Virus record (IMG/VR): IMGVR_UViG_3300044646_001246 | Source of the DNA: an uncultured virus (IMG/VR IMGVR_UViG_3300044646_001246) | Taxonomy: Duplodnaviria; Heunggongvirae; Uroviricota; Caudoviricetes | Direction: 5' to 3' (one strand) | Length of the DNA: 64,000 nucleotides | Part shown: positions 15,002 through 18,429 of the stretch, piece after piece | How positions within the stretch are numbered: position 1 is the stretch's first letter | Layout of the letters: each line of letters starts with the position of its first letter | Notes under the pieces: model-generated | What the model saw: only the letters and a program-made list of their open reading frames with translations | What the model was told of the DNA's origin: nothing | Databases searched by the model: none | Translations under genes and position numbers: made by a program

Positions 15002-15030
15002 TTGACAATTATTTTCGGTAGCGGTAACTT
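15002..15030 (+). promoter_or_regulatory. sigma70-like promoter of the recombinase with an operator in its spacer
   Basis: TTGACA-17-TAACTT; operator at 15012-15027. Confidence 0.6.
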
Positions 15031-15123
15031 TTGTCGGCGGTGGCAAGTTTGGTTTCCGTAACCAGATGGAGCGATAGCCAATTCATGGATTGATTCACGA
15101 AACAATTGTTTGTGAGTCATGTA

Positions 15124-16350
15124 ATGTCTGTAGTTCAGTTGAGTGATTTTCAGTTTTGCTTTGATATCGGTTCAGTCAGTCCAATCCCTCATGGGCTGTT
15201 TCAGGAGCCACAAGATCAGGTCGTTGAAGTTGTGAAGGTTGTGAAACCGGAAGTGGTTGAGGCGAGAAGTTTGGTTGAATTGTACGGCGATTTATTGGCG
15301 GCCAGTGATTTGGAGAAACGGGTGTCAGTGAAGACGATCAGAGATAACCGATCTACACTCGACAAGTTCGAGGTGTGGGGAAACTCTCAGCATCGAGTTG
15401 TTGCTGGCCGACCGCTGAGCTTGCTTGAGCAGCCAAAGATTTTGCGGAGCTATGCGGAGTTCCTGCGGGCTCAGCCGAAAGGGAATTCGTCGGCGATGGC
15501 GAGCAAAGCCTGCAGTGCAATCGGCAAGCTGGCCGGGGCGTGTGTTCGGGCAGGAATGCTGAAGCAGAAGCCTGAGACGGTGAGCAAATCAACAATCAAC
15601 CTCATGAGACCGCTGAGCGAGGAGCAGAGACGAGTTAAGGCCGTTCCTGTGACAGTCGCTGAGTTGCAGGCAATGCTGTCAGTGGTAGACGGGTGTAAGT
15701 GGCCGCGACTGGGGAGCGTGAAGCCGTCCGTGTTCTGGCAGACTAACTTGCTGTCGCATTATGTTTACGGGTTTCGTTCGCAAGATTGGTTCGCTGCCCG
15801 ATCGTCTGAAAAGCAGGGTCTGCGGTGGTCGGGCGTGATCACAGAAAGCCAATGCCCATACCTTGATGATTTGCACAATGAGGCCGGGTGGGCTTTGTAT
15901 TTGGTCCACAAGACCGCCAACAAGGATGAGGCTGCTGATCGTCCGTCTGACGTGTTGGTGCCTTTGTCCTGGAAGATGCGAGAACTGATCGAGCAGTTCC
16001 GCGGGCTGGATACGGAGAGAGTGTTTCCGATGAAGAACAATTCACGGACCTATTCGGAAGAGTTCTCGAAACTATTGGAACGTGCTGGATTGTCGGATGA
16101 GATCAGACGCAAGGAGAAAAAGCCAATCATCCGCCTGAGTTTAGGTCAGCGGAAGGTGGCGAGCTTTCGCAAGGGATCGTCAGCATTGTGGGCGAAGTAT
16201 GTCAGCCGCGCGGCATCGAGCTACATGCTTCACCATGCAGTCAGCGAGGAAGGCGTTGCGAAAATGACCGCTGAATCGTACTTGCAGAGTGAAGAGATCC
16301 TGAGAGACATTGTCGCGAAGATTGAGACGTTGCCGGTGTGGTCGCTTTGA
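15124..16350 (+). CDS. tyrosine recombinase associated with the cassette array
   Basis: Helical N-terminal core-binding-like region; candidate catalytic R (YGFRSQD), K (HKT), SFRK, LHH, Y (AESY). Confidence 0.75.
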   Translation: MSVVQLSDFQFCFDIGSVSPIPHGLFQEPQDQVVEVVKVVKPEVVEARSLVELYGDLLAASDLEKRVSVKTIRDNRSTLDKFEVWGNSQHRVVAGRPLSLLEQPKILRSYAEFLRAQPKGNSSAMASKACSAIGKLAGACVRAGMLKQKPETVSKSTINLMRPLSEEQRRVKAVPVTVAELQAMLSVVDGCKWPRLGSVKPSVFWQTNLLSHYVYGFRSQDWFAARSSEKQGLRWSGVITESQCPYLDDLHNEAGWALYLVHKTANKDEAADRPSDVLVPLSWKMRELIEQFRGLDTERVFPMKNNSRTYSEEFSKLLERAGLSDEIRRKEKKPIIRLSLGQRKVASFRKGSSALWAKYVSRAASSYMLHHAVSEEGVAKMTAESYLQSEEILRDIVAKIETLPVWSL

Positions 16351-16446
16351 TATCGAAGTGGAACATCCGCTGTTCATGGCGGCATGAAGAAAACATTGAG
16401 GTTGTGGCTTAAAAGTGGTATCGCTGTTGTTTTGGGGAGATCGGAA

Positions 16447-16650
16447 ATGAAATACAAGATTAAGACGATTGATGAGGCGGAACAGTTTCGACCTTACGAG
16501 GTCACGCTGCTAATCGAGTCACGAGAAGAACACGAGATGTTCCACGACAAGATTGCGTGTCAAATCGCAAAGACTAGCCAGTTTATTGGTGACGTGTATG
16601 AGGCTGGCAAGAAAACGATCATCAACAGCGGAAGTGTCCCGCTGAAGTAA
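16447..16650 (+). CDS. cassette 1 hypothetical protein
   Basis: RBS GGGGAG; 67 aa; ends in site 16649. Confidence 0.7.
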   Translation: MKYKIKTIDEAEQFRPYEVTLLIESREEHEMFHDKIACQIAKTSQFIGDVYEAGKKTIINSGSVPLK

Positions 16651-16707
16651 ACGCGGTAATTGCATCCGCTGTTGGTCAAAAATCTGAGATATTTGTAGTT
16701 TCGTGTA

Positions 16708-16736
16708 TTGACACGAAAGCGATTGGCCGATACACT
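16708..16736 (+). promoter_or_regulatory. sigma70 promoter inside cassette 2, overlapped by palindrome TTTCGTGT-ATTG-ACACGAAA
   Basis: TTGACA-17-TACACT. Confidence 0.75.
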
Positions 16737-16781
16737 TGGTGTCAGTGGTGTGGAAGACAACGCAAGCCAAGGAGCAGAACG

Positions 16782-17045
16782 ATGATGACACAAGATCCAA
16801 TTACAATGTCAGTCGCTGATGCAATCGGAATGACAGTCGAGCAGGCAGAGTTGCAGCCAAAGACGGCCGCTAGACGTGCCGCTGCTGTTCTGCGAAATAA
16901 TGGGTTTGAGCGACGGGCATGTCATTTAGCGTGGGAGCGTGGCAGCCGGTGGTACAAATCTGGAAGCACTATTCCGCTTCCGGATCTATGTGCTACCTCG
17001 ATTCTTGGTGTCGCACTGTTGTCTGGCGACATTTCGGAGAAGTGA
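16782..17045 (+). CDS. cassette 2 gene A, hypothetical
   Basis: RBS AAGGAG. Confidence 0.7.
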   Translation: MMTQDPITMSVADAIGMTVEQAELQPKTAARRAAAVLRNNGFERRACHLAWERGSRWYKSGSTIPLPDLCATSILGVALLSGDISEK

Positions 17046-17050
17046 TCGAC

Positions 17051-17233
17051 ATGGCAAGACCGGCAAAGCCAAAAGGCACACACACTAGGACGACAGTGCG
17101 GCAACTAGGGCGAGTCGATGATGAGACATGGAATTTAATTCAGCAAGCAGTTGTGGCGTCAGGTGAGACGTTCACGGCGTGGGCTGTTGAAGCACTTGTT
17201 CGCAAAGCAAAGCGACAGTCAAAGAAGAAATGA
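17051..17233 (+). CDS. cassette 2 gene B, ribbon-helix-helix-like DNA-binding protein
   Basis: MARPAK...VRQLGRVDDETWNLIQQAV...FTAWAVEAL pattern. Confidence 0.6.
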   Translation: MARPAKPKGTHTRTTVRQLGRVDDETWNLIQQAVVASGETFTAWAVEALVRKAKRQSKKK

Positions 17234-17276
17234 GCAGCGGAACTTGTATGCTCTGTTGGTGCGAAAGGATGATCGA

Positions 17277-17567
17277 GTGACGAACGACGAAATCAAATCA
17301 GAACTCATAAAATTGGCAGCAGAATGTTTTCGGGCTGACCTGATGCCACCATTATTTGTGACCGACTGGGATTTGCCGAAATCGACGCCCAAGCGAGCCA
17401 GAGACGAAATCCAAGGGCACATGGCACAGGTTCGGCTGACCGCCAGTGGTTGGGGTCGGCGGTTGAAAGCTCTGGCCGATAAGCTACCGAAGTCGGATGC
17501 GGAACTAGGTCTGAAGCCGTACGGCGAATCGATAGCGAACTATCAGGCCGAAAATCGTAGGCAATGA
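17277..17567 (+). CDS. cassette 3 hypothetical protein
   Basis: GTG after AAAGGA, between sites 17233 and 17567. Confidence 0.65.
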   Translation: MTNDEIKSELIKLAAECFRADLMPPLFVTDWDLPKSTPKRARDEIQGHMAQVRLTASGWGRRLKALADKLPKSDAELGLKPYGESIANYQAENRRQ

Positions 17568-17600
17568 GGAGCGGAATTCCGTTCCAATAACAGGTGAACC

Positions 17601-17792
17601 ATGACAGTCGAAGAAAGAAAAACGAGCAGGCCAGATTCTCGCTGGAAGGCTGAACTGCTGAATCTTTACCGATCAGCGGAACGTCTTCGCGAGGAAATTC
17701 CGGAAGCGGCAAACATGGAATATCAGACTGGTATCATGATGGCCTGCGCAGCGATATGGCATCGAGTGACTGGCGAGGCGTTGGTGAAGTAG
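17601..17792 (+). CDS. cassette 4 hypothetical protein
   Basis: RBS AGGTG; between sites 17567 and 17791. Confidence 0.65.
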   Translation: MTVEERKTSRPDSRWKAELLNLYRSAERLREEIPEAANMEYQTGIMMACAAIWHRVTGEALVK

Positions 17793-17837
17793 GATCGGAT
17801 CGTGGTTTCTGTGTTGACGCTTTTGCGGGAGTTTTGA

Positions 17838-18107
17838 GTGATGGGACAGTACACACCGGGACCGTGGCGAGTCGGAGGCGTAGAGGATTTGCGGCACGGT
17901 CGAGGCAGGCAAATCGCAGCGGACGACGCGAAAATTTGCGTTGTGTATGGCGTCAGGGATTCTGATGTAAAAGCAAATGCCAGACTGATTGCAGCGGCAC
18001 CCGAAATGCTGGAGGCTCTCAAAATGGTTCTTCAGCATGGGCGAATCGACGACAGCGAAAACAGGATGGCAATGGTTGCCAGTGCAATCACAAAGGCGGA
18101 ACAGTAA
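17838..18107 (+). CDS. cassette 5, common phage small-protein family (TPGPW...ANARLIAAAP)
   Basis: Recognisable motif; between sites 17791 and 18106. Confidence 0.75.
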   Translation: MMGQYTPGPWRVGGVEDLRHGRGRQIAADDAKICVVYGVRDSDVKANARLIAAAPEMLEALKMVLQHGRIDDSENRMAMVASAITKAEQ

Positions 18108-18429
18108 CAGCGGTCTGGTACTCCGGTGTTGATTTGGAAGCAGCACGCAGGAACTGGCCTGCGCAAAGTCGGCCCAAGGAAATGCCCGCAAAGATGACAC
18201 CTTTGAGGGGGCTGGTTTCCTGAGTGTGTTTTGGTTGATGAGGATCGGAATAACTGTCCTCTGCTGAGTTGCGCAGTTGCCAATGGAGCAACCGAGTCGT
18301 GAGAGTGCCAGCGTGGCGCGAGGCTATACTCAATCGACCGCCCCTGCCGCCAGAGCCATAAGCGGGGACCAAAGGCGTTTCAGAACAACCAGCGGACTAC
18401 CATACCGATAGCACAGAGACCACCACACA

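What the first reader, a model, noticed from the sequence alone, without database searches (positions are those of the whole stretch)
15002..18412. Integron-like gene-cassette array: tyrosine recombinase plus 25-bp AACAGCGGA-N7-TCCGCTGTT sites at gene ends
Seen, directly after the recombinase (15124-16350), as left arm/spacer/right arm: 16350 ATATCGAAG/TGGAACA/TCCGCTGTT; 16649 AAACGCGGT/AATTGCA/TCCGCTGTT; 17233 AGCAGCGGA/ACTTGTA/TGCTCTGTT; 17567 AGGAGCGGA/ATTCCGT/TCCAATAAC; 17791 AGGATCGGA/TCGTGGT/TTCTGTGTT; 18106 AACAGCGGT/CTGGTAC/TCCGGTGTT; 18241 AGGATCGGA/ATAACTG/TCCTCTGCT. The first six overlap a gene's stop codon, starting with the recombinase's own. Units between sites are 135-584 bp, mostly RBS plus one co-oriented ORF. 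Established: inverted arms around a 6-8 bp spacer is the tyrosine-recombinase core-site layout, and stop-codon-abutting sites ending in GTT recall integron attC. These sites are much shorter than attC, the enzyme is co-oriented and not recognisably IntI, and every spacer differs. Inference: a phage-borne cassette capture/shuffling system, possibly not needing spacer homology, that I do not recognise as described.
Basis: partly seen in the sequence, partly recalled or inferred. Interest (0 to 1): 0.95.

Follow-up and report, generated by a model that had tools for sequence, protein, structure and literature searches.

The report
Barcoded gene-swapping joints in lake phages
A row of short mirrored DNA sites marks the exact points where lake phages swap small accessory genes, each joint carrying its own conserved 7-8 letter tag, but the neighbouring recombinase gene is absent from most phages that have the same joints.

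Summary
All seven sites exist. An eighth lies at 18388 and two more at 61026 and 63156. A matrix built only from relatives finds 10 sites in the window against 0.63 expected.

The gene at 15124-16350 has a tyrosine-recombinase fold. In about 45 related viral and metagenome contigs the same 9-7/8-9 sites recur. Their spacers keep a fixed order (344 concordant observations, 1 discordant), while the genes between them are mostly unrelated. Ends of shared DNA segments fall on the sites (110 of 162), also in independent lake metagenomes. The arms do not co-vary, so the sites are not hairpins. They are not promoter-terminator units.

The integron reading is only partly supported. The sites are short and double-stranded in type, the slots are ordered, and one site lies in frame inside a gene. 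Only 4 of 26 arrays sampled through a site carry the recombinase. Two complete or near-complete array phages have no tyrosine recombinase.

Best reading: dedicated joints for cassette replacement. The catalyst is unresolved: this recombinase acting in cis or trans, or short-homology recombination.

The parts
15124..16350 (+). Divergent tyrosine recombinase (408 aa), first gene of the operon. Its stop codon overlaps site 1.
   Evidence: No Pfam or NCBIfam hit; phrog_1 integrase at 4e-6. AF2 model pLDDT 78.9. Foldseek top hits are lambda Int core+catalytic domains (1z19, E 1.8e-5), Cre, XerH and Tn1549 Int. R218, K263, R349, H370/H371 and Y386 are invariant in 26 sequences.
16349..16374 (+). Site 1, 8-nt spacer (label gtggaaca), left boundary of the array.
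   Evidence: 18.5 bits. Homology of all close relatives ends at 16376-16379. L014 and L171 share the array from inside this site onward, while their upstream DNA is unrelated.
16447..16650 (+). Cassette ORF (67 aa), no family match.
   Evidence: The slot is empty (8 bp) in L020, L025, L026 and L167. Metagenome contigs skip it (joint 16374>16647).
16649..16673 (+). Site 2 (spacer label aattgca).
   Evidence: Fifteen occurrences of this spacer over 15 loci, with many different flanks.
16782..17233 (+). Two-gene cassette: an 87-aa ORF and a 60-aa RHH-like ORF (17051-17233), with a promoter-like site at 16708-16736.
   Evidence: weak TacA1, below cut-off; weak YlcI/YnfO.
17233..17257 (+). Site 3 (acttgta).
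17277..17567 (+). Cassette ORF (96 aa), no family match.
17567..17591 (+). Site 4 (attccgt), degenerate right arm in the window.
   Evidence: Below 11 bits. Orthologous sites with the same spacer in L003, L007 and 12 further loci.
17601..17792 (+). Cassette ORF (63 aa), shared with L007/L020/L026 (85% nt) and L022.
17791..17815 (+). Site 5 (tcgtggt).
17841..18107 (+). Cassette ORF (88 aa), phrog_1273, shared with L021.
18106..18130 (+). Site 6 (ctggtac).
18131..18240 (.). Non-coding unit, 76% identical in L007/L020.
   Evidence: No Rfam match and no excess fold.
18241..18265 (+). Site 7 (ataactg).
18266..18387 (.). Non-coding unit, 100% identical to L181 together with both flanking spacers. 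The arms outside it differ.
18388..18412 (+).
   Evidence: 16.3 bits. Same spacer in L181. In run X2 the same left arm continues with another slot's spacer and a promoter instead (loose end at 18395).
61026..61051 (+). Distant site (ctcgttga), orthologue of the tcgttga slot that lies 3-4 kb after the array in other phages.
   Evidence: The upstream gene 60696-61026 is 71% identical (aa) to L026 19223-19585.
63156..63180 (+). Distant site (actggac), in frame inside ORF 62884-63999. N- and C-terminal parts are re-assorted at it among 9 loci.

Best explanation
The 25-26-bp sites have two imperfect inverted 9-bp arms with an invariant inner core (CGGA on the left, its complement on the right) around a 7-8-nt spacer. 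I read them as dedicated recombination joints of a hypervariable accessory-gene operon that several unrelated lake-phage lineages share.

Each joint has its own spacer, and the spacers stand in one fixed order. Co-infecting phages replace whatever lies between two joints: one or two small genes, nothing, or a 2.6-kb helicase-methylase block. The arms travel with the adjacent gene, and the spacer is common to both partners. One joint lies in frame inside a probable tail-fibre gene and re-assorts its two halves.

Shown: the sites, their order, the hypervariable content, and the concentration of homology breakpoints on the sites, including recent exchanges in natural populations.

Inferred: the joints are double-stranded core-type sites of a tyrosine recombinase of the family encoded at 15124-16350. 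It would cut at the two spacer edges and need matching spacers, so that a pair of different joints gives ordered cassette exchange, a natural counterpart of recombinase-mediated cassette exchange. It would act in cis where present, as in this window, and in trans on the many arrays that lack it.

Confidence in the sites as crossover points is about 0.85. Confidence in the whole statement, including the catalyst, is given below.
For: Site layout and enrichment.

The arms are not a hairpin. There are 5.47 Watson-Crick pairs of 9 against 5.78 when arms are permuted, and 1000 of 1000 permutations reach the observed value. There is no promoter or terminator excess and no Rfam match.

Spacer order is 344 concordant to 1 discordant over 106 spacer-type pairs. 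Of 520 same-spacer pairs between loci, 469 have neither flank alike.

Slot contents are mostly unrelated. Protein similarity is found in 12 of 210 locus pairs for one slot and 2 of 120 for another.

Breakpoints fall on the sites. 110 of 162 ends of segments at least 90% identical lie within a site +/-6 nt, which is 8.9% of array length (p 1.6e-75). This is seen at nucleotide level. In four lake-metagenome runs all 6 joints, and all 23 loose ends shown (25 more were not displayed), sit at or within a few nt of the sites. Some contigs have 0 differences on one side, such as 16281-16670 and 16655-16995.

Arrays are shared by backbones with no other similarity, so exchange needs crossovers at the sites themselves.

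The in-frame joint at 63156 has re-assorted flanks in 9 loci, which a transcriptional element would not explain.

Link to the recombinase: it has the fold. The first site overlaps its stop codon in the close relatives. Three divergent subfamilies carry a perfect or near-perfect site of the same design inside their own gene (L023 8122, L037/L038, L022 8152).
Against: Only 4 of 26 arrays sampled through a site pattern have the recombinase within about 10 kb. Five arrays from another pattern have none on their contigs.

G008 (100% complete, direct terminal repeats) and G006 (97% complete) have arrays but neither this family nor PF00589. The positive control G010 rings.

In the recombinase-less arrays examined the first gene is a small protein, a CopG-like protein in 10 of 16, so the recombinase may be just one alternative cargo.

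Spacer length varies between 7 and 8 nt, even within one slot.

The same gene and left arm occur joined to different spacers.

52 of 162 segment ends lie off the sites. A 99%-identical helicase-methylase block sits in slot 1 in L181 and slot 2 in L026. Its breaks fall at the ribosome-binding leader and just before the left arm, so the site was not carried along. That points to short-homology recombination.

A typical array phage (G004) encodes an AAA_24/Sak4-like protein plus DUF669.

L041, a 60%-identical recombinase, has no site in 9.7 kb downstream.

The His of the usual HxxR motif appears to be Ala346 (by inspection). No activity was tested.
Confidence: 0.4

Rival explanations
1. The sites are conserved junction motifs with some other primary role, such as binding of an unidentified phage or host protein. 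Cassette replacement is a by-product of short-homology recombination, by phage single-strand-annealing or Sak4-type proteins or by template switching, at the only sequences the variable operons share. This is the logic of PeSL shuffling in T4-type phages. The tyrosine recombinase is merely one of the alternative first genes, for example an integrase.
For: Most arrays lack the recombinase, including complete genomes. G004 has AAA_24 + DUF669. Some breaks fall at another short conserved motif, the leader AAAACATTGGRG, and inter-slot moves do not carry the site. 32% of segment ends are off-site. Spacer length is not fixed. PeSL precedent: abstract of PMC2839356.
Against: No function is evident. 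The sites are not a hairpin, not a promoter or terminator, and one lies in frame inside a coding region. Perfect identity between partners is only about 11-25 bp, yet exchanges between backbones with no other homology are frequent and recent. This model does not explain why spacers stay identical while arms are only 74% alike. It also does not explain why divergent recombinases carry perfect sites inside their own genes.
Confidence: 0.35
2. The sites are operators of a dimeric repressor, for instance the CopG-like first-gene product, which blocks transcription through the accessory operon, comparable to the stoperators of mycobacteriophage L5 (recalled, not looked up). Their position at gene ends makes them coincide with mosaic boundaries.
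For: The arms are conserved as sequence, not as pairs. The half-site centres are about one helical turn apart. An RHH protein is the first gene in 10 of 16 recombinase-less arrays, and an RHH-like ORF sits in the window's array.
Against: No RHH homologue was detected in most recombinase-bearing loci (BLAST only). Slot-specific conserved spacers and the in-frame site at 63156 are unexplained. Breakpoints fall on the sites far more often than gene ends alone would predict.
Confidence: 0.1
3. A host-encoded tyrosine recombinase (Xer-like or other) acts on the sites. This would explain why unrelated phages, presumably of one host, share them. The phage-borne family would be a captured or parallel version.
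For: Arrays occur in three unrelated backbones and in complete phages without any recombinase. The site layout fits a tyrosine recombinase.
Against: The host is unknown. The sites do not resemble dif as I recall it. Only 2 loci were found in 185,579 species genomes, both in short MAG contigs.
Confidence: 0.1

Closest known systems
PeSL (promoter-early stem-loop) cassettes of T4-type phages (Arbiol et al. 2010, PMC2839356, abstract read; Comeau et al. 2014, PMC4122927, search listing only)
   Same: A short conserved motif repeated between small non-essential genes of a hyperplastic region. Insertions, deletions and replacements between related phages have their ends in the motif.
   Different: Here there is no sigma-70 promoter and no stem-loop terminator. 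Each joint has a unique, conserved spacer in a fixed order. The joints are shared by unrelated phage backbones. One joint lies in frame in a gene. A tyrosine recombinase accompanies some arrays.
Integrons and attC arrays without integrase (CALINs), including integron parts reported in phages (Qi et al. 2023, PMC9892861, abstract read)
   Same: A tyrosine recombinase next to a one-directional row of mostly single-gene units. Sites sit at the 3' ends of genes. Many arrays lack the enzyme.
   Different: The sites are 25-26 bp, not the 57-141-bp folded single-strand attC (size recalled), and show no arm covariation. The enzyme is co-oriented and not recognised by integrase models. Slot order is fixed. 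No attI or Pc was identified.
Simple tyrosine-recombinase sites with heterospecific spacers (Cre/lox and FLP/FRT variants used for recombinase-mediated cassette exchange; engineered; the listing shows only engineered uses)
   Same: Inverted arms around an asymmetric 7-8-bp spacer. Different spacers at the two ends of a unit would give ordered replacement without deletion.
   Different: The arms are 9 bp and degenerate. The system is natural, with about 20 slots. Spacer length varies. The enzyme-site relation is not shown.
Boundary or linker sequences of lambdoid phages (modular theory; recalled, not looked up)
   Same: Short conserved sequences at module boundaries, proposed as foci for exchange.
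   Different: Here the motif is explicit, repeated and statistically tied to breakpoints.

Membership tests
Tyrosine recombinase superfamily | Two-domain fold (core-binding plus catalytic domain) | tested here: met
   AF2 model pLDDT 78.9. Foldseek probability 1.00 to lambda Int 75-356, Cre, XerH, XerA and Tn1549 Int, with TM 0.43-0.61.
Tyrosine recombinase superfamily | Catalytic R-K-H-R-H/W-Y set | tested here: inconclusive
   R218, K263, R349, H370/H371 and Y386 are invariant in 26 sequences. The residues were assigned by inspection. The position three residues before R349 is an invariant Ala, not His.
Tyrosine recombinase superfamily | Sequence match to PF00589 or a curated integrase model | tested here: not met
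   No Pfam or NCBIfam hit. No PDB sequence hit with the profile. Among 30 distant relatives, 6 hit Phage_int_SAM_5 and 1 hits PF00589 below cut-off.
Integron | attC sites: long imperfect palindromes that fold as single strands | tested here: not met
   The sites are 25-26 bp. Arm-arm pairing is below that of permuted arms.
Integron | IntI-type integrase, divergently oriented, with attI and Pc | tested here: not met
   The enzyme is co-oriented with the cassettes and is not recognised by integrase models. The IntI-specific insertion was not examined. IntegronFinder was not available.
Integron | Cassette order varies by excision and re-insertion at attI | tested here: not met
   Spacer order is 344:1 concordant. 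Gene content varies within fixed slots.
PeSL-type regulatory cassettes | Strong sigma-70 promoter plus stem-loop terminator | tested here: not met
   Promoter-like sites: 4 against 2.6 expected. Terminator-like sites: 3 against 4.2 expected, none on the + strand. No hairpin covariation.
PeSL-type regulatory cassettes | Indel and replacement ends lie in the motif | tested here: met
PeSL-type regulatory cassettes | Mini-circles formed between neighbouring motifs | not testable with these tools
   Only contigs, not raw reads, were available for the runs laid.
Cre/lox-like simple site-specific recombination system | Inverted binding arms around an asymmetric 6-8-bp spacer, next to the enzyme's gene | tested here: met
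   for the window. However, 22 of 26 arrays sampled via a site lack the gene.
Cre/lox-like simple site-specific recombination system | The enzyme binds and recombines the sites; spacer identity is required | not testable with these tools
   Needs a bench assay.

The most novel reading that the evidence does not exclude
This would be a natural, multi-slot recombinase-mediated cassette-exchange system. A tyrosine recombinase, carried by a minority of phages and acting in trans on the rest, or a host enzyme, swaps accessory genes and even tail-fibre halves between otherwise unrelated co-infecting lake phages. It acts at about twenty ordered joints whose 7-8-nt spacers serve as slot addresses that keep exchanges in register.
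Probability: 0.35. Interest if true: 0.95.

Novelty: new variant of a known kind. Interest (0 to 1): 0.8.

Why it matters
Phage mosaicism is usually put down to rare illegitimate or short-homology events filtered by selection. Here the joints are explicit and position-tagged, are shared across unrelated phage backbones, and are demonstrably used in natural lake populations. That makes the mechanism of modular exchange directly testable.

If the joints are substrates of the recombinase, this would be a natural heterospecific cassette-exchange system. It would offer a set of about twenty orthogonal short sites for engineering.

The cargo includes DNA methyltransferases and an SNF2 helicase, which suggests rapid turnover of anti-restriction genes.

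Tried and rejected
RNA/DNA hairpin or intrinsic terminator: rejected. The arms pair less well than permuted arms, there is no terminator excess, and T-richness after the right arm is unremarkable (mean 2.4 T in 10 nt).

Known RNA family or structured RNA in the non-coding units: no Rfam match at or near threshold. Fold z-score is -0.33.

Classical integron: rejected (see membership tests).

Whole genome of the window: none is held.

GenBank phage relatives: tblastn finds no match for the recombinase or for ORF 24171-25940.

First site-pattern scan: 74 of the 80 fetched loci were chance matches. The tblastn gave no hits at all; I re-ran it with positive controls.

Window scan for a promoter motif seen after the last slot in relatives: only a chance-level match.

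The leader motif AAAACATTGGRG is common in relatives but occurs once in the window's array and is not enriched in the window.

Covariation of arm sequence with recombinase subfamily: suggestive only. The L023 and L037/L038 arms differ, but L021/L022, at 46% identity, use the common arms.

Earlier notes of this scan by place and by sequence: nothing found.

Literature searches found no description of such arrays. One search found the PeSL papers.

Parts of the stretch that the runs' contigs did not cover were not interpreted.

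
Full report
**1. The observation**

The region 15002-18412 contains a 408-aa ORF (15124-16350) followed by small co-oriented ORFs. 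The consensus with 3 or fewer mismatches matches 4 times in the window against 0.05 expected.

To avoid circularity I built a half-site matrix from 22 sites of related loci only, taken by coordinates. In the window it finds 10 sites of 14 bits or more against 0.63 in shuffles. These are seven in the array, including a new one at 18388-18412 just before the serine-recombinase gene, plus 38417 (probably chance, inside an ORF), 61026 and 63156.

The first site fits better with an 8-nt spacer. The 17567 site is weak in the window, but orthologous sites in relatives vouch for it. The first six sites overlap stop codons. Over 44 loci, 129 of 246 distinct sites overlap a stop codon, 51 have one 1-12 nt upstream and 66 have none. 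The opposite-strand control gives 34 of 246.

**2. The enzyme**

The ORF has no Pfam or NCBIfam match and only a weak PHROG integrase match. Its relatives (154 at E<=1e-3; the 120 listed are all unnamed and without Pfam domains) form a small family. An exhaustive search found 127 representatives among 1.84 billion proteins.

A model built on 26 sequences (pLDDT 78.9) matches lambda Int, Cre, XerH and Tn1549 Int. R218, K263, R349, H370/H371 and Y386 are invariant. The His of the usual HxxR motif seems to be Ala; this is by inspection. It is therefore a divergent tyrosine recombinase by fold, with activity untested.

**3. Relatives**

Recombinase homologues were found in 11+3 viral loci, 2 MAG contigs and 22 metagenome loci.

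DNA similarity to the window ends at 16376-16379, right after site 1. It resumes only for single units bounded by sites. Most recombinase-bearing loci with enough downstream sequence carry rows of the same sites; L041 and L037/L038 show no such row in the sequence held.

The spacers recur between loci and stand in one order:
- gtggaaca, aattgca, acttgta, attccgt, tgtcgatg, gttggtg, atgttgg, ... gcacact, tgagcgt, atcgtgt, tcgtggt, ctggtac, gtgacgct, ataactg, taaccat, ncggaac
- then, 3-4 kb and a further 2 kb on, tcgttga and actggac.

Over 106 spacer-type pairs there are 344 concordant observations and 1 discordant (29 loci). L027 and L020 were dropped as duplicates of L026.

The contents of a slot are mostly unrelated. 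For aattgca>acttgta, 21 loci hold 18 distinct contents of 266-2608 bp, and protein similarity is found in 12 of 210 locus pairs. For acttgta>attccgt it is 2 of 120. Some slots are empty (8 bp). Cargo includes an SNF2 helicase and N6/N4 and C5 DNA methyltransferases.

**4. Breakpoints**

At nucleotide level, homology between loci starts or stops at the spacer edges. The arm goes with the adjacent gene, and the spacer is shared by both partners. The unit 18266-18387 with both flanking spacers is 100% identical to L181, while the arms outside differ. L014 (recombinase) and L171 (RHH first gene) share more than 5.6 kb of array at 97.5-99.8% from inside site 1 onward, with unrelated DNA upstream.

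In 35 arrays, 110 of 162 ends of segments at least 90% identical lie within a site +/-6 nt, which is 8.9% of array length (p 1.6e-75). The other 52 lie elsewhere.

In four lake-water metagenome runs, laid as contigs with the likely source run left out, all six joints run from site to site. All 23 loose ends shown sit at or within a few nt of the sites; 25 more were not displayed. Some contigs are identical to the window on one side and different on the other. The joints have short sides (20-30 nt) and were laid at 90% likeness. They therefore show relatives with other slot contents rather than deletions in this genome.

**5. What the sites are not**

Arms of one site pair less well than arms paired at random (5.47 against 5.78 of 9; 1000 of 1000 permutations reach the observed value; 138 distinct sites). 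No hairpin, RNA or DNA, is under selection. There is no promoter or terminator excess, no Rfam family, and no excess structure in the non-coding units.

**6. The recombinase is not an obligate partner**

I sampled arrays through a site rather than through the enzyme. A 17-mer of the acttgta slot returned 32 viral loci, 26 with three or more sites. Only 4 of the 26 have the recombinase within about 10 kb. Some contigs in this sample are near-duplicates of each other (L167, L168, L182).

Five arrays from an earlier pattern have none on their whole contigs. In the recombinase-less arrays examined the first gene is a small protein, in 10 of 16 a CopG-like one; some loci gave no clear ORF. In the two loci read in full (L069, L107) it follows an iteron-like region and a promoter.

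G008 (39 kb, terminal repeats, 100% complete) and G006 (97% complete) have arrays but neither this family nor PF00589. The positive control G010 rings. G004 has a classical integrase elsewhere and an AAA_24/DUF669 pair.

The window's backbone is unrelated to G004 (one 35-aa match). L014, L015, L018 and L026 sit on G004-like backbones, and L021-L024 on others. The array is thus a module shared by at least three phage types.

**7. For and against a recombinase mechanism**

For:
- The 9-7/8-9 layout fits.
- Spacers stay identical while arms are about 74% alike.
- Both spacers travel with a unit.
- Exchange occurs between genomes with no other homology.
- The joint at 63156 lies in frame inside ORF 62884-63999, and three downstream types combine with several upstream types in 9 loci.
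- Three divergent recombinase subfamilies carry a perfect or near-perfect site inside their own gene, in the same protein loop.

Against:
- The points in section 6.
- Spacers of 7 or 8 nt occur within one slot.
- The same gene and left arm are joined to different spacers.
- A 99%-identical helicase-methylase block lies in slot 1 in L181 and slot 2 in L026. Its breaks fall at the ribosome-binding leader and just before the left arm, which looks like short-homology recombination.
- L041 has no sites nearby.

**8. Verdict**

The sites are real, conserved, position-tagged joints at which lake phages replace accessory genes. I hold that part at about 0.85.

Who catalyses the exchange is open. My estimates are about 0.4 for a spacer-matching tyrosine recombinase (this family in cis or trans), 0.35 for short-homology recombination at motifs kept for another reason, and the rest for an operator role or a host enzyme.

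It is not an integron. The nearest described things are PeSL shuffling in T4-type phages (PMC2839356, abstract) and, by design, engineered heterospecific cassette exchange. Searches found no description of such arrays. Supplements were not consulted.

Notes from other sessions of this scan report comparable joints in other phages. They are unchecked and were not used as evidence.

Noticed in passing
window 18430-19923: A 497-aa serine recombinase with two tandem resolvase catalytic domains (two Pfam stretches, residues about 1-160 and 198-339). It starts 18 nt after the last array site. A small HTH_17 ORF lies on the opposite strand at 19904-20092.
   Followed up: partly
window 18388-18412 versus 61026-63180: In other phages the tcgttga and actggac joints lie 3-4 kb and about 6 kb after the array. 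In the window they are 42.6 kb away, with the serine recombinase, virion genes and a replication module between. In run X2 the same left arm at 18395 continues with the next slot and a promoter instead. The block from 18413 on may therefore have been joined in at a site.
   Followed up: partly
L023 8122; L037 4263 / L038 1618; L022 8152: Divergent members of the recombinase family carry a perfect or near-perfect 9-7-9 site inside their own coding sequence. All are in phase 1, in the variable loop after the conserved F.xW helix.
   Followed up: partly
window 63156-63180 (ORF 62884-63999): The site is read in frame in a probable tail-fibre-like protein that follows a LamG-domain virion protein. 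Upstream and downstream halves are re-assorted among 9 loci.
   Followed up: partly
window 14060-14650 and 55430-55830: Low-complexity CACCAC-type repeats lie upstream of the recombinase operon. A separate AT-rich region with repeated GGAACAG units follows the primase-like gene (51841-54705) and looks like an origin with iterons. Relatives have GGGAAAGAAG or GGGACAGAAGG iterons between the primase gene and the array.
   Followed up: no
L069 9356-9526, L107 9431-9597 and 14 other loci: Recombinase-less arrays start with a small basic protein, in 10 of 16 a CopG-like one, in the place the recombinase takes in the window.
   Followed up: partly
relatives, about 8-12 nt before start codons (e.g. 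L020, L026, L014); window 16390-16401: A second conserved motif, AAAACATTGGRG, precedes many cassette start codons. It is probably a ribosome-binding leader and serves as an alternative breakpoint.
   Followed up: partly
L026 11309-15196; L181; G008 (L198 11872-14498): Larger cassettes carry an SNF2-type helicase with an N6/N4 methyltransferase, and a C5 cytosine methyltransferase. This is likely anti-restriction cargo.
   Followed up: no
window 1-14000 and 46000-55300: The window's backbone has no relative among GenBank phages for two proteins tried. It encodes DUF932, an AAA ATPase and a DUF4942 methyltransferase on the minus strand, and an exonuclease, a Dda/RecD-like helicase, an ERCC4 nuclease and a primase on the plus strand.
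   Followed up: no
G004:C1:19604-20722: A typical array phage without the divergent recombinase does carry a classical PF00589 integrase, far from the array.
   Followed up: no
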